Shown one piece after another: positions 38,380 through 45,977 of a stretch of DNA of 64,000 nt. The notes beneath the pieces are model-generated. The model saw nothing but the letters and a program-made list of their open reading frames with translations, did not search any database and was not told where the DNA came from. The translations under genes were made by a program, and so were the position numbers. Source of the stretch: a phage; the sequence record PV730302.1, one strand, 5' to 3'. Each line of letters opens with the position of its first letter. Position 1 is the first letter of the stretch.

Positions 38380-38412
38380 GTAATAGTACCACATCCTTGT
38401 GGTAATGTAAAC
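38380..38412 (-). promoter_or_regulatory. T4 early-type promoter GTTTAC-N17-TACTAT
   Basis: Upstream of ORF 38064..38354; -35 element overlaps alt paralog 1 stop codon. Confidence 0.5.
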
Positions 38413-40538
38413 TACATTTTGAATTTATTTGATAAAGAAGAGATATCCAAAGATGCAGCAAGGATTTCCATAGCCTCGTTACTTTCAGAAATGGATTCAC
38501 TAACCAAGAACTGTTTAAAGCCGTCCATCAGGCGAACTTCACCAGTTTCCATCAAATGGTCACCATCGTAAACAGATTCACTGAGCTCTGAAGGAGGTGT
38601 TACGGTAGCTTCCATAAGGTATTTGTGAGATACTCTATCATTCATGGCAAAAGCCGCTACTTTATCAACCTTCAACAATAATCCACGCGGAAGGATAATT
38701 TCTGCTTCTTCGGCATATTCTGTAAGGTCACCAGGAGCGATAACTTTAACTGCTTCAGCACCTCGAATAACCATACCAATTTCAGCAATTCTATCCGCAG
38801 GACCTTCAGGTGCAATTGGATTACCGAACTCGTCTTCTTCCCATTCTACCTCTTCGTCATCGACTTCACCCACATCAGATGAACTACCGCTAGCCAATTT
38901 AAACAACTCATCAGCGGAGGATAAAGAACCTTCGCCGCCAACAAAAACGGCTTGGTTGTCGAGGGCCATATAATTTTTACCAAATTCACCAAAGATGTTA
39001 GGCTTTAATGAGGCTGACACAAAGTTCTTAAAGTAAAATGTTTTGTTATCGATATTATGGCGCAGAATTTTGTATGGCAAATCCTGACCACGATACAAAA
39101 TAGTACCCTTAGGAAGTTTAATACCCTTAGTAAATGCTGAGTCTAAATCCTTAATCAATTTAATAGCCGTTGTATTGTTTTCGGATTCAGGTTTACCTAA
39201 AAGGAATAAGTTCATAGGAGCATATTCAGCTGCGCAATATTCAATAATAGCATTGCTTTCGTCTTTGGTTAGGTCCTTAGGTTTAATGAGCTCGCCTGAA
39301 TAAGCATATGCATCACTAATAGAATCGTTAACCAGTTTATAAACGGCTTCCATAGCGAAAGCAATTCGAGAGGCCTTTTCTGAAGGAGAACCCTTAAAAC
39401 GAGCACTCAAGTTATTAACAATTTTCTTAATAATATCCAGACTATTGGTTGTATTGATTTGCGAAAGACCACTTAAAAGTCTATCGACTTCTGTATTAAA
39501 AAATGCCATATTATTAGAGTAAATTTCAAACCCTTGTTTATCTCTATTAGCATAATTTAGTTTAAATTTACTATCAGTCATTAAAGCGTGCGTGAGGGCA
39601 ATAGTGTATCTAAAGTTGGCAAGGTCCTCGCTCTTAGATTTAAACTGAGAAGCCTGGCGCATTTTAGTAATAGCACCTTTTTTAAAGTTCTGACTAATCT
39701 GTTCAATACCTTCATTCTCAGGGCCTTCAGCCGTGTGAACCGGTACAGAAGCTTCAAACTCGTTATAAACCTGCAATTCTTTAGGGGACAAAGTTTCAGG
39801 CTCAGCAGTAGAATACTGTGCGGCTGCTGCCATACGACGGGAAATCTTAGTACGGGTAATGACAGCCTTATCAGTACGTTTCTCTTCAACTTGTGCAATA
39901 GATGCCGCTACTGCTTCGACCTTACTTACGGCCTGGCCGGTTTTCTTAGAAACATACACTTCGCCAACTTTAGACTCAACTTTAGTATAAAGATCGGCAT
40001 TAATTTCAGGCATACCCTTGATATCTTCAATATTAGCACCGCGACGTACTAAAAGAACGTAGGTATGTTTTCCGCTGAATTGGAACATGTCGTCAACAAC
40101 TTTAAACTTACCACCGGTACGGGCCATAGCCAAACGAGCTAATACGCGCTGAACGGTAGGGCCTTTACCTTTCATTTTCTTAGTAGGGAAACGGAATAAA
40201 ACCGCGTCCATTTTAAGTTTGTTTATTTGTTCGTATATGGTATCGAAAATGGTGTTCAGTGTACCGAGTGGATCGGTACCCAACCCACCCTTGAGTTCTG
40301 CCGGAGCGCCTTTAGCAGACAAACTCATCAAAATAACATGAACATATTTGTCGCCCGGCTTAACCATTTTAATAGCGTCTCCTTGAGACGCATAAGATAC
40401 CATACGAGCAACCAGATTATCGTTACCTGGGGCTTGGATAGAGAAAATCTGTGGAATACCGGAACCTGGTTTAAGATTTGTTACTGGATAGTTTTTAGCG
40501 GAATCACTATCAAAAACCTCATTTAAATTTTCCATCAT
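38412..40538 (-). CDS. alt: Alt-like ADP-ribosyltransferase, paralog 1 (predicted capsid-packaged)
   Basis: 708 aa; conserved N-terminal half shared with paralog 2; C-terminal R (LYRGQ) / S-x-S (FVSASL) / E (EAEIILPRG) motifs. Confidence 0.85.
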   Translation of the reverse strand: MMENLNEVFDSDSAKNYPVTNLKPGSGIPQIFSIQAPGNDNLVARMVSYASQGDAIKMVKPGDKYVHVILMSLSAKGAPAELKGGLGTDPLGTLNTIFDTIYEQINKLKMDAVLFRFPTKKMKGKGPTVQRVLARLAMARTGGKFKVVDDMFQFSGKHTYVLLVRRGANIEDIKGMPEINADLYTKVESKVGEVYVSKKTGQAVSKVEAVAASIAQVEEKRTDKAVITRTKISRRMAAAAQYSTAEPETLSPKELQVYNEFEASVPVHTAEGPENEGIEQISQNFKKGAITKMRQASQFKSKSEDLANFRYTIALTHALMTDSKFKLNYANRDKQGFEIYSNNMAFFNTEVDRLLSGLSQINTTNSLDIIKKIVNNLSARFKGSPSEKASRIAFAMEAVYKLVNDSISDAYAYSGELIKPKDLTKDESNAIIEYCAAEYAPMNLFLLGKPESENNTTAIKLIKDLDSAFTKGIKLPKGTILYRGQDLPYKILRHNIDNKTFYFKNFVSASLKPNIFGEFGKNYMALDNQAVFVGGEGSLSSADELFKLASGSSSDVGEVDDEEVEWEEDEFGNPIAPEGPADRIAEIGMVIRGAEAVKVIAPGDLTEYAEEAEIILPRGLLLKVDKVAAFAMNDRVSHKYLMEATVTPPSELSESVYDGDHLMETGEVRLMDGFKQFLVSESISESNEAMEILAASLDISSLSNKFKM

Positions 40539-42623
40539 TTACCCTTGGATGAATTTTTCTGGGATGTCATAGAGGTCTATGCATGAAGCCAAAAGAGGCA
40601 ATACATCAAACCGTGTAGATTTAACAAATGAATCAAAAGATACAGGGCTTTCGGAAGTATCGAAGTCATCTTGATATACGACCAACTCGCCGGTTTCCAT
40701 TAGTACGTCACCATCATATACCACAGATTCTTGAAGCTCATCTGTTGTCATAACTTCAGCTTGGATGAGTTTTGTATTACTAGATGTTGTTCCATCATTA
40801 TTAGAAGCATCTGTTATTTTATTAACTTTGACCATTAATCCACGCGGTAGAATAACTTCAGCTTCAGTTGCTATTCCGAGATTTCCTGGATATACGACAT
40901 TAACTTTATGAGCTCCATCAATCGCCCATCCTATTTGAACTTTAACATAATCAGGATTTTCTTTATATGCTCTTATTTCATTAGGATTAATAGTTATTCC
41001 TTCTTCATTTTTATCGACTGTCAATTCATTACGAACTTCCGGTTCTAAAAGACCAATACCTGCGTGCGTAACACCAAAACGTCCAAAAATGATAGGAGTT
41101 AAAGAAGTAGATACAAAATTTCTGAAATAGAACACTTTATTTTTAACTAGTGCTTCGTATATAGGAGCAGTCATACTCTGGGCACGATAAACTGTAATGC
41201 CTTCTGGTATACGGTCACCATTTTCAAAAGCAGAATCCAAATTATTAACTGCGGATTCGATATCTTTTTCGCTCATAACCTCATAGTTCTGAGGATTATA
41301 ACGTCCTAAAAGAAGATTATTTATGTCTGTATATCCTGAACCACAATATTCTCTGATGCCGCGCTTTTGTGATGGGGTATATTTAGAGCCCTCACGAGCA
41401 ATAGTAATATCGACCATAATACCGCCACCCACACCAGCAAAACTATATACACGTTTTTTAATGAACTTGGTCTTGGTGGCTTTCCACTTCGCATCGGTCA
41501 ATTCATTCCAGAGGTCGTCAGGTTGGCCTTTACGAGTTTTGTTATGCCGGGCCAGCCATTCACCTTTGTATTCTTCGAAAACGGTATTAATAGCAGAGGC
41601 ATATTTTTCTAGAGCTTTAACAGATGTCAAAGGTTCGTTTTTGATGGCCGTAAGAATTTTATCTTTAATTTTCTCTTGGATTTCGCCAATACCGTGAAGT
41701 GGGAACAATTTATAGTCGTAATGCAATTCTTCAGCAGTGCCTTCAGCTACTATATTAGCAACCCTATTTTTAGCCGCAGGAGAATTGTTATTAATGACCA
41801 TTTCCTGGGCCTCAGGGATTAATGGAACTGTTGCCGGTTTATTAAAATCCGCTGCAGTAGCTTCATATTTCTTAAACAATTCACTTTCATTACGATAAGA
41901 TTCCAATGATTGGCTTGCTGCAATGGCGCGCCTAGAAATCTTAGTCTTGGTTATAACCATTTTATCAGTGCGACGTTCTTCAACCTTAGCAATACTGCCG
42001 GCAATAGCAGTTTCTTTAGTAACCTGCACACCTTCTTTTTTGGAAATATAAACTTCACCGACATCAGAATCTACCTTAGTATACAATTCAGCATTAATTC
42101 CAGGCATACCTTTGATATCTTCGATATCAGCTTGTTTACGAACTACTAAGATGTAAGTATGTTTACCGGTAAATTGGTACATAGCCGGAACCACTTTAAA
42201 ACGTCCACCGGTTTTCTGTGCTACCAAACGTTGGATAATACGTTGAACGATAGGGCCTTGACCTTTCATTTTCTTGGTAGGAAAACGGAACATCACGGCA
42301 TCCATACGAAGCTTTTTAACTTGGTCATAAACCACATCAAAAATAGTATTAATCGCATCTACAGGAGTAGGGCCAAGGCCACCTTTAAGTTCGGCTGGAG
42401 TACCTTTAGCTGAAAGGCTCATAAGGATAACGTGGGCATATTTATCACCCATTTTAACTTGTTTAATAGCATCACCTTCAGAAGCGTAGGATACCATACG
42501 AGCAACTAATTGGGATTCTGCGTCGCCGATCTTCCAAATCTGGGGTACTTTAAGTTTAGGGTTCAAGTTTACTGTAGGCAGTGTGCCTTCGGACTCAAAC
42601 ACTTCATTTAATTGTTCGGTCAT
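40539..42623 (-). CDS. Alt-like ADP-ribosyltransferase, paralog 2
   Basis: 694 aa; N-terminal region near-identical in places to paralog 1 (MVSYASEGDAIKQVKMGDKYAHVILMSLSAKG); C-terminal YRAQ / FVSTSL / EAEVILPRG motifs. Confidence 0.85.
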   Translation of the reverse strand: MTEQLNEVFESEGTLPTVNLNPKLKVPQIWKIGDAESQLVARMVSYASEGDAIKQVKMGDKYAHVILMSLSAKGTPAELKGGLGPTPVDAINTIFDVVYDQVKKLRMDAVMFRFPTKKMKGQGPIVQRIIQRLVAQKTGGRFKVVPAMYQFTGKHTYILVVRKQADIEDIKGMPGINAELYTKVDSDVGEVYISKKEGVQVTKETAIAGSIAKVEERRTDKMVITKTKISRRAIAASQSLESYRNESELFKKYEATAADFNKPATVPLIPEAQEMVINNNSPAAKNRVANIVAEGTAEELHYDYKLFPLHGIGEIQEKIKDKILTAIKNEPLTSVKALEKYASAINTVFEEYKGEWLARHNKTRKGQPDDLWNELTDAKWKATKTKFIKKRVYSFAGVGGGIMVDITIAREGSKYTPSQKRGIREYCGSGYTDINNLLLGRYNPQNYEVMSEKDIESAVNNLDSAFENGDRIPEGITVYRAQSMTAPIYEALVKNKVFYFRNFVSTSLTPIIFGRFGVTHAGIGLLEPEVRNELTVDKNEEGITINPNEIRAYKENPDYVKVQIGWAIDGAHKVNVVYPGNLGIATEAEVILPRGLMVKVNKITDASNNDGTTSSNTKLIQAEVMTTDELQESVVYDGDVLMETGELVVYQDDFDTSESPVSFDSFVKSTRFDVLPLLASCIDLYDIPEKFIQG

Positions 42624-42677: not shown

Positions 42678-42860
42678 TTAAAGTACTAACAGCGTACGGT
42701 ACACTTCAAATTTAGGACCCTTTTCATAGCGGTCGAAATTATCTTTAAAATCGGCGAACGCGATTTCATTTTCAAATTCAAGGACAATTTGGGACACTGC
42801 AGTGGAGACATCCCCACCTTCTTTATATCCAATAACCACGGTTTCTAAATAAGCTTTCAT
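42678..42860 (-). CDS. Hypothetical small protein
   Basis: ORF 42678..42902 with start moved to internal ATG next to the gp30 stop; terminator hairpin downstream at 42659-42674. Confidence 0.4.
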   Translation of the reverse strand: MKAYLETVVIGYKEGGDVSTAVSQIVLEFENEIAFADFKDNFDRYEKGPKFEVYRTLLVL

Positions 42861-42861
42861 A

Positions 42862-44385
42862 TTATAGTCCAGTTTGAGACCAATCACCAAATACATCTTC
42901 AAATGTATCAGCTTCTGTTTTATCGAAACGCCAACCTTTAATAATTGGAAGGAAAATACCTACGGTATCAGTACGTCCTTTAGAGTGAACCCAACCATTA
43001 CATTCACAGTCGGCAATACGGCCAATCAATTTACCTTCACGAGCTTGTTTCATAAGAAGTTCACGGTCTAAATCAGGACGGTCTTCCAGTGGAATCAATA
43101 CCTTTTTACCTGATTTATCTTTCTTATGGGTAGTATCTTTAAAGCCTGAGCCACAGTCACTTGTAATTCGACGGCAATGTGATACTAATTCAACACCACC
43201 AAGTTTGTTAGGGTCCTTCGAGTGTTCATAATAACCTACCACTTCTAAAGCGATATCTATTACTTCTTTGAACTTGATAAGATTCTTAGAACGGCGATTT
43301 TCCCAGTAGGAGTCCATGTTCTTAAGGATAATACCTTCCAGACCTTGGTCGACATATTTTTTATAAACGACTTTAGCTTCTTCAAGATTATTAACCCACT
43401 GGTTTTCGATAGCTTCAACACGCGTTGTGCCATGCAATACGACATTATGAGCAACCATAAGTTCTAAGGCTGTAAAGCGTACATCATACTTATCGCCTTT
43501 AATTTTACCTTCGGAATATACGACATCCAATGGGACATAATCCCATGCCTGTAATACCATACCAGCGGCTTCAGTAGCCGAAATAGTTCCTTGAAGAGCT
43601 TTGTTAGCCAAGCCATTTGACGTAGAACGATCGGCGACAGTTTGGAATTCCTTAGCCTTACTTAATTCAGGAAGTTCCTCGTCAAACATACTAAACAAAT
43701 CATTAGATGCTTTAGGTTCTACCTTAGGAGTATGGTAAACTAATTCGCCATCAATCATAACGCCATTAGGATGGCGTTGTCGAGCTTCTTCGGTCATGGC
43801 CATTAATTCAGCAGCCAAAAGATTAAGCCCTTGATATTCATTACCACCACGAGTAAGGAATGTCACACCATCGTTACGAACTTCGGCAAAACAACGAGCA
43901 CCATCAGCTTTTAATTGAGCAAACGCTGGCCATTTAATATTTTTCTTAATCAAAGCTTCATCATAAGAACTCGCCAACATCTGCGGTTGTTCAGGGATTA
44001 AACCTTTCCAAACCTTGTTAGCAATAGAAATCGATGCACCACATTCAAGGTCGCGCATCATTACACGACGTAATACCTCGGCATCCGGGGCCTTAGCATC
44101 AGCAATGATTTGAGCCAGTTCTTCAATAGCCGCATTACCCGTAATCTTACGTGTGGCTAATGTGAATTCAGCGAAATCAAGAAGGTCTTCAAGAGTAATC
44201 ATACCAAAGGATTGAGATGTAAATCCAGGTTCTGGCCACTTTTTAATACCGTAGTTCAGACGACGGGTATAAGCCATACGATAAACACGTTTCAGAAGCT
44301 CATTGTCCTTTTCACGAGCAATAATGGCTTCTTTAGCTTTAGTAGAATCAATAGCAGCAATTTCGTTTAAAATATCTAAAATCAT
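42862..44385 (-). CDS. gp30: ATP-dependent DNA ligase gp30
   Basis: Start at internal ATG (MILDILNEIAAID); KADGARCF adenylation motif; strong similarity to T4 DNA ligase as recalled. Confidence 0.92.
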   Translation of the reverse strand: MILDILNEIAAIDSTKAKEAIIAREKDNELLKRVYRMAYTRRLNYGIKKWPEPGFTSQSFGMITLEDLLDFAEFTLATRKITGNAAIEELAQIIADAKAPDAEVLRRVMMRDLECGASISIANKVWKGLIPEQPQMLASSYDEALIKKNIKWPAFAQLKADGARCFAEVRNDGVTFLTRGGNEYQGLNLLAAELMAMTEEARQRHPNGVMIDGELVYHTPKVEPKASNDLFSMFDEELPELSKAKEFQTVADRSTSNGLANKALQGTISATEAAGMVLQAWDYVPLDVVYSEGKIKGDKYDVRFTALELMVAHNVVLHGTTRVEAIENQWVNNLEEAKVVYKKYVDQGLEGIILKNMDSYWENRRSKNLIKFKEVIDIALEVVGYYEHSKDPNKLGGVELVSHCRRITSDCGSGFKDTTHKKDKSGKKVLIPLEDRPDLDRELLMKQAREGKLIGRIADCECNGWVHSKGRTDTVGIFLPIIKGWRFDKTEADTFEDVFGDWSQTGL

Positions 44386-44395
44386 AATCACCTCA

Positions 44396-44674
44396 TTAGT
44401 CATGGATTCTATTATAAGCCACATCAGCCAAAAGCAAGTCTAATCGCTTATGATAAGAGAACACAAATCTCATTCGCCCATCAGATTTGAACTTGGACAT
44501 AAAGTGGACATAAATGAATCCCTGTTCGACGCATTCGCGCCAAACAGGATGGTCTTTAGCCGGATTTACATCAAATGAGTAATCATGATTCACATGACGA
44601 ATAAACTGGTTTACATGACCATAATCCATTGTAGTGGTAGGACCATAGTCTGAAATTGTATGAACTACAAACAT
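44396..44674 (-). CDS. Hypothetical protein (30.1 position)
   Basis: ORF 44396..44707; start set to internal ATG (MFVVHTISDYG) adjacent to upstream gene stop. Confidence 0.45.
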   Translation of the reverse strand: MFVVHTISDYGPTTTMDYGHVNQFIRHVNHDYSFDVNPAKDHPVWRECVEQGFIYVHFMSKFKSDGRMRFVFSYHKRLDLLLADVAYNRIHD

Positions 44675-44675
44675 A

Positions 44676-45314
44676 TTAACCTCGAGCAATCCATTCAACT
44701 GCGGCATTATTACGAAGGGATTCGATGGCTGCGATATCGTCCCATGAATTAACCTTTACGGCTAAATTAGGTTTAAAGTCACGTTCACCACGAGCTAACC
44801 AATAAACTTGGATATCCATGAGAACATTAGATGCAGCATCACAGTGGTGAGCCAAATCATCAACATAAAACTTAATACGTTTACCGTACGTATTTTTAGC
44901 TCTTATGAAGAGGTCTTCTTTTGATTCTGAATGACCACACATCAGAATCTCCTTGAATGCGCCAGGGAACAAAGCATTCAAATTGAATTGTCTATTCAGC
45001 AGGGCATCAATTGAGTCGCCTAGCGCAGTCACGGCTACAAAATCGAAGTCTTTTTTGAGCTTGTTGATATGTTTTAATGCGTCCATGTAAGGAGACAGAT
45101 AACGAATAAAATCTGACTGATTGTACTTCTCGATTAAACGAGCGCCTAATTCATTATCACAATTAAACAGCTCGCCTGGAGATAAGAAACGTTCGTCCTG
45201 AATCATATTCAAAATATGTTCTAAAGGCAAATTATATTTCTGTGCGAAATAAGGCAAGCCGGACTGCCAACTTAAACATACTCCATCGATATCTGTTAAG
45301 ATAACTGGTTTCAT
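44676..45314 (-). CDS. HAD-superfamily hydrolase-like protein (30.2 position)
   Basis: 212 aa; N-terminal DxDGV motif (LTDIDGV) and C-terminal DD motif (FYVDDLAHHCD) typical of HAD phosphatases. Confidence 0.65.
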   Translation of the reverse strand: MKPVILTDIDGVCLSWQSGLPYFAQKYNLPLEHILNMIQDERFLSPGELFNCDNELGARLIEKYNQSDFIRYLSPYMDALKHINKLKKDFDFVAVTALGDSIDALLNRQFNLNALFPGAFKEILMCGHSESKEDLFIRAKNTYGKRIKFYVDDLAHHCDAASNVLMDIQVYWLARGERDFKPNLAVKVNSWDDIAAIESLRNNAAVEWIARG

Positions 45315-45778
45315 AATAAATCTCTCAATTTGTTTAGGATGTCGATAAACTCTTTTTCAGTTAGTATTGTATCACATTCTGTAAGGTGGCTTGCCATAGA
45401 ATGCTTTAAAACTTTGCCCTTTGTAGCTTGTAACGCATCGCGAAATCCTGGGTTTTGGATCGCTGCTTCAAAATAAGCATTTTCGTACAACTCTTTCCAT
45501 GCTGTAGAGTATCTTGAAATGGGAGTTCCAAGCCAGAACAGCGTCCCGCGGTCCGCAGCTCTAGCATAAGCTCTTCCAGTTTGTTGTGCGGCCAGACCGG
45601 ACATCCCAAATATACGTTTTTGTTGTTCAACATTTTTCACCTTACACCCTTGGAGGAATCCTTCGAGTCCTCCAAATTGGATACCATCCATAACGAAAGG
45701 CCATTTAGCAAAGTTACTTAATGCGCATGATGGCCATGGGAAGTTGCTTCTAATTTCTAATTCAGACATCTTTGACAC
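45311..45778 (-). CDS. NADAR / YbiA-like (DUF1768) protein (30.3 position)
   Basis: 155 aa; SNFAKWP...DG segment resembles the YbiA/NADAR signature; assignment from recall only. Confidence 0.55.
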   Translation of the reverse strand: MSKMSELEIRSNFPWPSCALSNFAKWPFVMDGIQFGGLEGFLQGCKVKNVEQQKRIFGMSGLAAQQTGRAYARAADRGTLFWLGTPISRYSTAWKELYENAYFEAAIQNPGFRDALQATKGKVLKHSMASHLTECDTILTEKEFIDILNKLRDLL

Positions 45779-45977
45779 TTATAATTTCAACATCAGCCCA
45801 ATGCCCATAACCCGGCAGACGGTCTTCAATAGATAATCCGCCATCAGATTTCAGCATTTTAATTGTCATGATATAAGGGTCTAAATGGTCTGCCGTATGA
45901 GGAGAAACATCAGTCACACGATAAGTCACTTCGACCATTTCCGTACCTAATAATTTCTGAATCAATTTCTTAAACAT
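45762..45977 (-). CDS. Hypothetical protein
   Basis: 71-aa ORF in compact co-directional gene array. Confidence 0.45.
   Translation of the reverse strand: MFKKLIQKLLGTEMVEVTYRVTDVSPHTADHLDPYIMTIKMLKSDGGLSIEDRLPGYGHWADVEIISVKDV

What the first reader, a model, noticed from the sequence alone, without database searches (positions are those of the whole stretch)
44396..45778. HAD-like hydrolase and NADAR/YbiA-like gene pair next to DNA ligase and near the Alt pair
ORF 44676..45314 carries a HAD-type DxDG motif (LTDIDGV) and ORF 45311..45778 resembles the YbiA/NADAR family (SNFAKWP...DG). NADAR proteins are reported to hydrolyse ADP-ribose or N-glycosidic linkages on nucleic acid bases. Their position next to ligase, and about 2 kb from two ADP-ribosyltransferases, fits a nucleic-acid ADP-ribosylation repair or counter-defence module, for example against DarT-type DNA ADP-ribosylation. 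The link is inference only.
Basis: inference. Interest (0 to 1): 0.5.

Follow-up and report, generated by a model that had tools for sequence, protein, structure and literature searches.

The report
Known anti-DarT NADAR plus unrelated HAD phosphatase
One gene of the pair is this T4-like phage's copy of AdfN (gp30.3), an enzyme already shown to strip ADP-ribose off phage DNA and defeat the bacterial DarTG1 defence; its neighbour is a real HAD-type phosphatase (gp30.2), but published T4 data show it is not needed for that counter-defence.

Summary
The window comes from a T4-like coliphage of the Bp7/IME08 (Dhakavirus) group. The finding covers the homologues of T4 genes 30.3, 30.2 and 30.1, just upstream of DNA ligase.

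ORF 45311-45769 (true start ATG 45769) is 86% identical to T4 gp30.3, also called AdfN. AdfN is a published NADAR DNA ADP-ribosylglycohydrolase that counters DarTG1. The catalytic residues E36, K43 and H123 and the C-terminal helix are intact. The predicted structure matches only the three solved NADAR structures.

ORF 44676-45314 is gp30.2. It is a confident HAD-fold phosphatase with all four catalytic motifs and a helical cap, closest to deoxyribonucleotidases. Its substrate is unknown.

In published T4 transposon sequencing, gene 30.2 shows no effect under DarTG1 (log2FC -0.12), whereas 30.3 shows -7.25. In related phages gp30.2 stays next to ligase in 28 of 28 loci but next to 30.3 in only 13 of 28. 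Most gp30.3 homologues have other neighbours.

The only other T4 gene significantly depleted under DarTG1 is the small upstream gene 30.4 (window 45762-45977). That could be a polar effect on adfN, or it could point to AdfN's unidentified helper protein from T-even phages.

The NADAR part is correct but already known. The module is not real.

The parts
45311..45769 (-). adfN (gene 30.3 orthologue), 152 aa: a NADAR-superfamily DNA ADP-ribosylglycohydrolase of the phage gp30.3 subfamily. The mechanical ORF extends to a GTG at 45778; ATG 45769 corresponds to the T4 start.
   Evidence: Pfam PF08010 at 8e-65. 86% identity to T4 gp30.3, with E36, K43, H123 and the C-terminal helix conserved. AlphaFold2 pLDDT 93.2; Foldseek top three hits are YbiA, PnNADAR and GlNADAR. 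The T4 orthologue's function is published.
44676..45314 (-). Gene 30.2 orthologue, 212 aa: a HAD-superfamily phosphatase with a C1 helical cap. Its start overlaps the adfN stop (ATGA). It lacks the roughly 65-aa Pro/Tyr/Asn-rich C-terminal tail of T4 gp30.2.
44396..44674 (-). Gene 30.1 orthologue, 92 aa from the ATG at 44674: a DUF3045 protein of unknown function lying between 30.2 and the ligase.
   Evidence: PF11243 at 5.9e-16 and phrog_2054 at 1.9e-34. The alignment to T4 gp30.1 begins at MFVVHTI. The junction reads TAA-n-ATG. T4 30.1 shows no DarTG1 phenotype.
45762..45977 (-). Gene 30.4 orthologue, 71 aa, function unknown. Its stop overlaps the adfN start (ATGTCTGA). It lies outside the finding's coordinates but is the only T4 gene besides adfN that is significantly depleted under DarTG1.
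   Evidence: phrog_2042 at 1e-35. Junction sequence. T4 transposon sequencing: log2FC -1.79, q 0.014, one of only two significant genes. Distribution is limited to T-even-like enterobacterial phages, always directly upstream of 30.3.
42862..44385 (-). Gene 30, ATP-dependent DNA ligase. It is the conserved downstream neighbour of 30.2/30.1. The likely start is ATG 44385, preceded by GAGG.
   Evidence: PF01068 at 1.6e-23 and phrog_114 at 1.3e-158. Sequence at the junction. Ligase lies directly downstream of gp30.2 in 28 of 28 related loci.

Best explanation
The region is the conserved T4-type early gene string 30.4-30.3-30.2-30.1-30 of a Dhakavirus-like phage. It is best read as two separate functions that happen to be co-transcribed.

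(1) Gene 30.3 is the orthologue of AdfN. It is a small free-standing NADAR enzyme. It hydrolyses the N-glycosidic bond between guanine in DNA and the ADP-ribose that the DarT1 toxin attaches after infection. This restores replicable phage DNA and defeats DarTG1. That activity is shown for the T4 protein. It is inferred here from 86% identity with every catalytic residue and the C-terminal helix intact.

(2) Gene 30.2 encodes an active-looking HAD phosphomonoesterase with the DxD nucleophile/acid pair, Thr, Lys and DD motifs. Its helical C1 cap points to a small-molecule substrate, most probably a nucleotide or deoxynucleotide monophosphate. It belongs evolutionarily with the ligase block, is dispensable in the laboratory, and is not part of the anti-DarT mechanism. 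The fold and motifs are shown. The substrate is inferred.
For: AdfN identity:
- Pfam PF08010 at 8e-65.
- 86% identity to T4 gp30.3.
- E36, K43 and H123 are invariant in 36 diverse homologues.
- The NADAR fold is recovered independently.
- Published T4 work covers genetics, mutagenesis of E36 and K43, the truncation variant, and in vitro de-ADP-ribosylation of guanine-modified DNA.
- An independent transposon-sequencing study confirms the phenotype: log2FC -7.25 under DarTG1.

gp30.2 as a HAD phosphatase:
- AlphaFold2 pLDDT 94.5, with motifs I-IV at the ends of strands 4-7, 91-96 and 147-152 and at the start of helix 133-146. The cap is formed by helices 16-86.

gp30.2 leaning towards a nucleotidase:
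- NT5C is the only family-specific Pfam hit besides the generic HAD models Hydrolase and HAD_2 (5 of 38 members, best E 0.002).
- Mouse cdN (2jao) is the best PDB hit to the family profile and the only HAD enzyme among them. The invariant W16 aligns to a Phe of cdN that, from my recollection of the cdN/mdN structures, stacks on the base.

Separateness of the two genes:
- T4 30.2 shows log2FC -0.12 under DarTG1, -0.10 in M9 versus LB, and 72 of 72 TA sites disrupted on K-12.
- Ligase is adjacent in 28 of 28 loci, gp30.3 in 13 of 28.
- Downstream neighbours of gp30.3 vary widely across 88 loci.
Against: - No experiment has been done on this phage's own proteins.
- AdfN(T4) fails to neutralise DarT1 outside a T-even infection, so something else in the phage matters. 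A redundant contribution from gp30.2 would not show up in a single-gene transposon screen.
- 30.3 and 30.2 are translationally coupled (ATGA overlap). They are directly adjacent in T4-, Dhaka- and some Acinetobacter- and Vibrio-type phages.
- In KVP40-like vibriophages, gp30.3 has moved to another locus yet is again overlapped by a HAD enzyme, a bona fide NT5C (PF06941, 3e-12). That recurrence hints at some functional affinity between NADAR and HAD nucleotidases.
- The nucleotidase specificity rests on sub-threshold sequence hits. Fold neighbours with very similar scores include dehalogenases and sugar phosphatases.
Confidence: 0.78

Rival explanations
1. One reading: NADAR and HAD form one ADP-ribosylation repair or counter-defence module. 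After AdfN releases ADP-ribose from DNA, gp30.2 would dephosphorylate a product or by-product such as ribose-5-phosphate, AMP or a phospho-ADP-ribose derivative. Alternatively it would be the T-even-specific helper that AdfN needs.
For: - ATGA start/stop overlap and direct adjacency in T4-like, Dhaka-like, and some Acinetobacter- and Vibrio-type phages.
- An independent NADAR-plus-NT5C pairing at a different locus in about 49 KVP40-like vibriophages.
- AdfN(T4) works fully only during a T-even infection, and RB69, which it rescues, carries an intact 30.2.
Against: - T4 insertions in 30.2 (71 TA sites) are not depleted under DarTG1 (log2FC -0.12, p 0.61). Only 30.3 and 30.4 are significant genome-wide.
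- 64 of 88 gp30.3 loci lack gp30.2 within 6 kb.
- gp30.2 stays with the ligase when gp30.3 is elsewhere, for example 60 kb apart in Erwinia phage COW86c.
- Distant gp30.2 relatives sit near PhoH, not near any ADP-ribose gene.
Confidence: 0.08
2. gp30.2 is a nucleic-acid end-healing enzyme (a polynucleotide 3'-phosphatase) that prepares nicks for the adjacent DNA ligase, analogous to the HAD phosphatase domain of T4 polynucleotide kinase.
For: - Strict 30.2-(30.1)-ligase synteny in 28 of 28 loci.
Against: - The model has a roughly 70-residue helical C1 cap between motifs I and II. From general knowledge of the HAD superfamily, such caps enclose small substrates, whereas macromolecule-directed HADs such as Pnkp are capless.
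- Pnkp aligns over the core only (125-129 residues). Capped small-molecule enzymes align over 160-180 residues.
- T4-like phages already encode PseT.
Confidence: 0.08
3. The physiological substrate of this phage's gp30.3 is not, or not only, DarT1-modified DNA. It could act on soluble ADP-ribose-derived defence signals, or on ADP-ribose adducts made by the phage's own two Alt enzymes.
For: - Iyer et al. 2022 argued that phage NADARs mainly target low-molecular-weight ADP-ribose derivatives, and noted co-expression with ARTs in T4-like phages.
- The family is very large (at least 7197 proteins) and present in phages of hosts where DarTG1 may be rare.
- Two Alt paralogues lie 2.7 kb away.
Against: - Direct genetics and biochemistry for T4 AdfN show DNA-guanine de-ADP-ribosylation and a DarTG1-specific phenotype.
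- alt insertions have no DarTG1 phenotype, and adfN has no phenotype without DarTG1.
- No data support another substrate.
Confidence: 0.1

Closest known systems
T4 gp30.3 = AdfN (anti-DarT factor NADAR), Johannesman et al. 2025, PMC11825919. In vitro activity in Toxins 2024, PMC11125620. Classed as a phage NADAR in Schuller et al. 2023, PMC11543638.
   Same: - 86% identical over the full length.
- Same Pfam family (PF08010).
- Same catalytic Glu, Lys and last-strand His.
- Same C-terminal helix, which RB69 lacks.
- Same genomic position between 30.4 and 30.2.
- Same overlapping start and stop codons.
   Different: Twenty-one substitutions relative to T4 (131 of 152 positions identical), none at known catalytic positions. 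It comes from a Dhakavirus-type phage rather than a Tequatrovirus. Its activity and DarTG1 phenotype have not been tested.
DarG1, the DarT1-associated NADAR antitoxin (BC4488 subfamily; Geobacter lovleyi 8bat, E. coli C7)
   Same: Same fold (Foldseek probability 0.84) and the same reaction: guanine-ADP-ribose hydrolysis on DNA, shown for the T4 orthologue.
   Different: - Last-strand catalytic residue is His rather than Asp.
- It is an orphan gene with no DarT partner.
- The T4 orthologue cannot replace DarG1 in uninfected cells.
- No PADLOC hit.
E. coli YbiA (2b3w), the riboflavin-intermediate N-glycosidase and founding NADAR member
   Same: Best structural match (E 2.2e-4, TM 0.69) and best profile match (E 0.0033).
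   Different: 19% identity. YbiA has Glu in the last strand. Its physiological role is different. The window protein does not reach the Pfam NADAR (PF08719) threshold.
T4 gp30.2 (NP_049815), an uncharacterised hypothetical protein
   Same: 72% identity over the roughly 195-aa HAD core, and the same position and coupling to 30.3 and 30.1.
   Different: The window protein ends about 65 residues earlier and lacks the Pro/Tyr/Asn-rich tail. Tail length is variable across the family.
5'(3')-deoxyribonucleotidases cdN/mdN and the NT5C family (PF06941), including 3bwv and the KVP40-group phage NT5C
   Same: HAD core with a four-helix C1 cap. Motif I reads DxDGV followed by an aromatic residue eight positions after the nucleophile. 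These are the best family-specific sequence and structure neighbours.
   Different: Scores are below Pfam's threshold (13.4 bits against 24.8). Only 14-18% identity. Pairwise similarity to the vibriophage NT5C is limited to motif I. Specificity is untested.

Membership tests
Phage gp30.3 / AdfN subfamily of NADAR | Significant match to the gp30.3 family model and full-length orthology to T4 gp30.3 | tested here: met
   PF08010 at 8.3e-65 and 217 bits against a cut-off of 36. 86% identity end to end with T4 gp30.3.
Phage gp30.3 / AdfN subfamily of NADAR | Catalytic Glu and Lys (T4 E36 and K43), and His in the last beta-strand in place of the Glu of YbiA or the Asp of DarG1 | tested here: met
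   E36, K43 and H123 are present in the window protein and invariant in 36 homologues. H123 directly follows the last strand, residues 120-122, in the model.
Phage gp30.3 / AdfN subfamily of NADAR | Intact C-terminal helix, whose loss in RB69 abolishes protection | tested here: met
   The alignment runs to the last residue of T4 gp30.3. The model has helix 138-151. The truncated RB69 gene is seen.
Phage gp30.3 / AdfN subfamily of NADAR | Hydrolysis of guanine-linked ADP-ribose on DNA, and protection of the phage from DarTG1 | not testable with these tools
   Shown only for the T4 protein. Inferred here by orthology.
NADAR superfamily (YbiA fold) | YbiA-type alpha+beta fold | tested here: met
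   The Foldseek top three are the three solved NADARs (2b3w at E 2.2e-4 and TM 0.69; 8bau at probability 0.99; 8bat at 0.84). Every other match has probability 0.06 or lower.
NADAR superfamily (YbiA fold) | Match to Pfam NADAR (PF08719) above the gathering score | tested here: not met
   No PF08719 hit for the window protein at E<=0.1. The vibriophage orthologue reaches only 18.2 bits against 35.1. Pfam models gp30.3 as a separate family, so this reflects divergence and not exclusion from the superfamily.
HAD superfamily phosphatase | Rossmannoid HAD core fold | tested here: met
HAD superfamily phosphatase | Motifs I-IV: DxD, Thr/Ser, Lys, DD. The second Asp in motif I marks phosphotransferases as opposed to dehalogenases. 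| tested here: met
   D8-x-D10, K132 and D152-D153 are invariant and T96 is at least 90% conserved in 38 homologues. All sit at strand ends or a helix start in the model. That the +2 Asp marks phosphotransferases is established knowledge of the HAD superfamily.
HAD superfamily phosphatase | Significant sequence match to a curated HAD model | tested here: inconclusive
   The window protein has only NT5C at E 0.074. Among 38 family members, 6 hit PF00702 (best 3.5e-4), 5 hit NT5C (best 2e-3) and 3 hit HAD_2. No NCBIfam hit.
NT5C / 5'(3')-deoxyribonucleotidase family | Pfam PF06941 above the gathering score, and nucleotidase activity | tested here: not met
   13.4 bits against 24.8. The family profile against cdN 2jao gives E 0.12. 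Structural similarity is no better than to other capped HADs. Activity is not testable here. I therefore do not file it as NT5C, only as nucleotidase-like.
Anti-DarTG counter-defence module (NADAR + HAD acting together) | Both genes required for protection from DarT | tested here: not met
   Published T4 transposon sequencing read: 30.3 at log2FC -7.25 (q 0); 30.2 at -0.12 (q 1).
Anti-DarTG counter-defence module (NADAR + HAD acting together) | Conserved co-localisation of the two genes across lineages | tested here: not met
   24 of 88 gp30.3 loci have gp30.2 within 6 kb, all of them T4-related. 13 of 28 gp30.2 loci have gp30.3 nearby, against 28 of 28 with ligase. The one exception that points the other way is the NADAR+NT5C pair in KVP40-like phages.

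The most novel reading that the evidence does not exclude
AdfN of T-even phages works fully only during a T-even infection, and the reason is unknown. The missing helper may be neither the HAD enzyme nor Alt, but the 71-aa protein gp30.4 encoded immediately upstream (window 45762-45977). Three observations fit:
- Its stop codon overlaps the adfN start.
- Its distribution is restricted to T-even-like enterobacterial phages.
- It is the only gene other than adfN that is significantly depleted in T4 transposon sequencing under DarTG1.

A weaker second reading is that the recurrent NADAR-next-to-HAD-nucleotidase arrangement (gp30.2 in T4-like phages, NT5C in KVP40-like phages) reflects a redundant clean-up step that single-gene screens cannot see.
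Probability: 0.15. Interest if true: 0.55.

Novelty: already known. Interest (0 to 1): 0.25.

Why it matters
The NADAR gene matters because it is a working example of a phage carrying an orphan antitoxin-like enzyme to undo DNA ADP-ribosylation by a bacterial defence. That is already published for T4. This window adds only that Dhakavirus-type phages carry an intact copy and should resist DarTG1.

There are two useful results here.
- A negative one: the neighbouring HAD phosphatase should not be annotated as part of an ADP-ribosylation module. It is a ligase-linked, dispensable enzyme, probably nucleotide-directed, whose substrate is still unknown.
- A lead: re-reading the T4 transposon data points to gp30.4 as a cheap, testable candidate for the open question of why AdfN(T4) needs a T-even infection to work.

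Tried and rejected
- Single-sequence searches of both proteins against PDB sequences gave nothing useful. NCBIfam and PADLOC gave no hits.
- The first homology search for gp30.3 returned only 21 close relatives. An alignment that included distant phage orthologues was needed to reach the wider family.
- I considered gp30.2 as the T-even-specific cofactor of AdfN. I rejected this on the T4 transposon data and on synteny.
- I considered whether the shorter gp30.2 (212 aa against 278 aa in T4) is a truncation or frameshift. I rejected this because the HAD core is complete and C-terminal tails vary freely in the family.
- I checked the T4-annotated internal out-of-frame ORF 30.3' (window 45406-45633). 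Close relatives have a non-start codon (ATC, ATT or ACG) at its start position, and one has an internal stop, so it is most likely not a gene.
- I scanned the neighbours of distant gp30.2 relatives for functional clues. Only a weak PhoH association emerged (12 of 110 neighbours), with no ADP-ribose or NAD genes.
- The promoter and terminator scan of 42.5-49 kb was no better than shuffled sequence and gave no operon boundary inside the gene string.
- A literature search for gp30.2 found nothing.
- I did not use the large representative-protein search, because its top 150 hits would all be close family members and carry no annotation.
Full report
**Context.** The 1.4-kb region is 96-98% identical in nucleotide sequence to Escherichia phages Bp7, IME08, WG01, QL01 and relatives. 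The window is therefore a T4-like myovirus of the Dhakavirus type. All genes in the region lie on the minus strand. Comparison with the annotated T4 genome gives the order 30.4, 30.3, 30.2, 30.1, 30 (DNA ligase), alt.1, then Alt. The finding covers 30.3, 30.2 and, without saying so, 30.1.

**The observation.** Both ORFs and both quoted motifs are present. Gene boundaries need small corrections.
- The ATG at 45769 (MSELEIR...) matches the T4 gp30.3 start. It overlaps the stop of the upstream gene (ATGTCTGA), exactly as in T4, so the GTG at 45778 is probably not used.
- The 30.3 stop and the 30.2 start overlap (ATGA).
- 30.1 starts at 44674 (MFVVHTI, as in T4), one base after the 30.2 stop.
- The ligase most likely starts at 44385, behind a GAGG.
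- The string is tightly packed. A promoter and terminator scan found no more sites than in shuffled sequence.
- The two upstream Alt-like genes (38412-40538 and 40539-42623) both carry the ADP-ribosyltransferase domain PF03496.

**The NADAR gene.**
- The protein hits Pfam Phage_30_3 (PF08010) at 8e-65, not the NADAR model. It is 86% identical to T4 gp30.3 over its whole length.
- A profile of twelve diverse orthologues finds E. coli YbiA as the best PDB sequence hit (E 0.0033). The alignment covers the LSNF...EGFLQ..K segment.
- An AlphaFold2 model built on 36 homologues has pLDDT 93.2. Its only credible Foldseek matches in the PDB are the three solved NADARs: YbiA 2b3w (E 2.2e-4, TM 0.69), Phytophthora NADAR 8bau (probability 0.99) and Geobacter DarG1-type NADAR 8bat (probability 0.84).
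- The literature settles the function of the T4 orthologue.
  - Schuller et al. 2023 defined phage NADARs as the subfamily with His in place of the last-strand Glu or Asp.
  - The 2024 Toxins paper showed that T4 gp30.3 hydrolyses guanine-linked but not thymine-linked ADP-ribose on DNA.
  - Johannesman et al. 2025 named it AdfN. It is necessary for T4 to resist DarTG1 and sufficient to rescue RB69. E36 and K43 are needed for full activity. The 15-residue C-terminal truncation found in RB69 reduces activity.
- In the window protein, E36, K43 and H123 and the C-terminal helix (residues 138-151 of the model) are all present. The three residues are invariant in 36 homologues. By orthology the gene is adfN and is predicted to be active.

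**The HAD gene.**
- Sequence evidence alone is weak: NT5C at E 0.074, mouse cdN at E 0.25 as a single sequence and 0.12 as a family profile, and no NCBIfam hit.
- The protein is 72% identical to T4 gp30.2 over the core and lacks T4's Pro/Tyr/Asn-rich tail of about 65 residues. Tail length varies freely in the family.
- D8, D10, G11, K132, D152 and D153 are invariant and T96 nearly so across 38 homologues down to 37% identity. They fall where HAD motifs I-IV should be in the model.
- The second Asp of motif I marks a phosphoryl-transfer enzyme, not a dehalogenase. The helical insertion at 16-86 is a C1 cap, typical of small-molecule HADs. Both points come from established knowledge of the HAD superfamily.
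- Several hints point to a nucleotide monophosphatase.
  - NT5C is the only family-specific Pfam model hit by family members.
  - cdN is the best PDB sequence hit to the family profile. The invariant W16 aligns with a Phe of cdN that I recall as base-stacking.
- These hints do not meet the NT5C family threshold. I call the protein a HAD phosphatase of unknown, probably nucleotide, substrate.

**Are the two genes a module?**

Three lines of evidence say no.
1. **Genetics.** The HIDEN-SEQ preprint supplies per-gene transposon data for T4.
   - On a DarTG1 host exactly two genes are significant: 30.3 (log2FC -7.25, q 0) and 30.4 (-1.79, q 0.014).
   - Gene 30.2, with 71 TA sites, is unchanged (-0.12, p 0.61). 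So are 30.1 (-0.01) and alt (-0.01).
   - 30.2 is also non-essential on K-12 (72 of 72 sites hit) and neutral in M9 versus LB (-0.10).
2. **Synteny from the 30.3 side.**
   - Of 88 gp30.3 loci (8 chosen phages plus 80 IMG/VR contigs), only 24 have a gp30.2 homologue within 6 kb, and all 24 are T4-related.
   - Elsewhere the downstream neighbour varies. Examples are a ligase, a second canonical NADAR, a DprA/SLOG-like protein, a dUTPase-like protein and helicases.
   - In Erwinia phage COW86c the two genes are 60 kb apart. Caulobacter and Sinorhizobium phages have gp30.3 with no gp30.2 in the 3.5-kb flanks inspected.
3. **Synteny from the 30.2 side.**
   - All 28 close gp30.2 homologues have the DNA ligase directly downstream, usually with 30.1 in between. 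Only 13 have gp30.3 within 6 kb.
   - Distant gp30.2 relatives in marine viral contigs have neither. Their only recurrent neighbour is PhoH.

Some evidence points the other way.
- 30.3 and 30.2 are translationally coupled.
- In KVP40-like vibriophages gp30.3 sits beside gene 47, yet is again overlapped by a HAD enzyme. This one is a bona fide NT5C (PF06941, 3e-12) that is only distantly related to gp30.2. That is one lineage, so at most one extra evolutionary event.
- A single-gene screen cannot exclude a redundant role.

I put the module reading at about 8%.

**A lead outside the finding.**
- AdfN(T4) removes ADP-ribose in vitro and protects T-even phages. It cannot replace DarG1 in uninfected cells and hardly rescues T5 or Bas25. 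The authors suggested that an additional T-even protein is required.
- The transposon data leave few candidates among non-essential genes. The only other significant gene is 30.4.
- Its homologue here (45762-45977, 71 aa, phrog_2042) overlaps the adfN start. It occurs in 722 phage records, nearly all enterobacterial and mostly Escherichia, Shigella and Yersinia phages. In every locus where I found it, it lies directly upstream of 30.3. It is intact in RB69, the phage that AdfN(T4) rescues.
- The simpler explanation is polarity. The adfN start has no obvious Shine-Dalgarno sequence and lies inside the 30.4 reading frame, so insertions in 30.4 could lower AdfN translation. That would fit the partial depletion.
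- I rate a true helper role at about 15%. The test is simple and is listed under next steps.

**Verdict.**
Both have been published for the T4 orthologue, so novelty is nil beyond recording an intact copy in a Dhakavirus-type phage.
- The HAD assignment is correct at fold level.
- The proposed NADAR-HAD-ligase-Alt module is not supported. The gene order is inherited T4-type synteny, the HAD gene travels with the ligase, and it is dispensable for DarTG1 resistance.
- Interest is low overall, with a modest residual lead in gp30.4 and an uncharacterised, widely conserved phage HAD phosphatase.

Noticed in passing
window 45762-45977 (-): The gene 30.4 homologue (71 aa, phrog_2042, no Pfam) overlaps the adfN start. 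In published T4 transposon sequencing, 30.4 is the only gene besides adfN significantly depleted under DarTG1 (log2FC -1.79, q 0.014). The gene is confined to T-even-like enterobacterial phages. This could be polarity on adfN, or 30.4 could be the unidentified T-even helper of AdfN.
   Followed up: partly
window 38412-40538 and 40539-42623 (-): Two full-length tandem Alt-like ADP-ribosyltransferase genes (708 and 694 aa), both carrying PF03496. T4 has one alt plus the short remnants alt.-1 and alt.-2 of an old duplication, and RB69 has one.
   Followed up: partly
window 45406-45633 (-), inside adfN in another frame: Counterpart of the T4-annotated internal ORF 30.3' (75 aa). In close relatives its start position is ATC, ATT or ACG, and one relative has an internal stop. 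It is absent in distant orthologues. It is probably not a gene.
   Followed up: yes
L004:3507-4458 (Vibrio phage VH7D; the same arrangement in KVP40 and about 49 vibriophages): The gp30.3 homologue has moved next to gene 47 and is overlapped by a bona fide NT5C 5'(3')-deoxyribonucleotidase-family HAD enzyme (PF06941, 3e-12). That enzyme is only remotely similar to gp30.2. This is a second NADAR-plus-HAD-nucleotidase pairing.
   Followed up: partly
L088:6001-6890 (IMG/VR contig 3300033997_000035): A gp30.3-type NADAR is followed, with a 4-nt overlap, by a canonical NADAR (PF08719, 8e-21). Two NADAR subfamilies in tandem suggests different substrates. In L047 the downstream neighbour is DprA/SLOG-like (PF02481, 1.3e-5, below threshold). 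In L024 the neighbour appears from its N-terminal sequence to be a DNA ligase, though it was not scored against a profile.
   Followed up: partly
L002:3501-3944 (Aeromonas phage Ah1, NC_055733, record coordinates about 166305-166748): A clear gp30.3/AdfN homologue (PF08010, 1.3e-42) lies in a stretch with no annotated CDS in the RefSeq record.
   Followed up: no
window 44676-45314 compared with L001:6475-7311: gp30.2 proteins share a conserved HAD core of about 195 aa but have highly variable C-terminal tails of 0 to about 140 aa. T4 has a Pro/Tyr/Asn-rich tail of about 65 aa that is absent here. The role of the tail is unknown.
   Followed up: partly
L117-L168 (marine and environmental viral contigs): Distant gp30.2-family HAD genes (24-33% identity) occur in smaller phage contigs without ligase or gp30.3 nearby. 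A PhoH-like ATPase is the most frequent neighbour, at 12 of 110 neighbouring proteins.
   Followed up: partly
window 42678-42902 (-): The alt.1-position ORF (74 aa) matches the recently defined Pfam family Phage_blade (PF24647, 8.8e-29).
   Followed up: no
L169:8268-8681 (RB69): The RB69 gene 30.3 is annotated at 414 nt and ends 42 nt before 30.2, so the ATGA coupling to 30.2 is lost. This is consistent with the published frameshift that truncates AdfN(RB69).
   Followed up: yes
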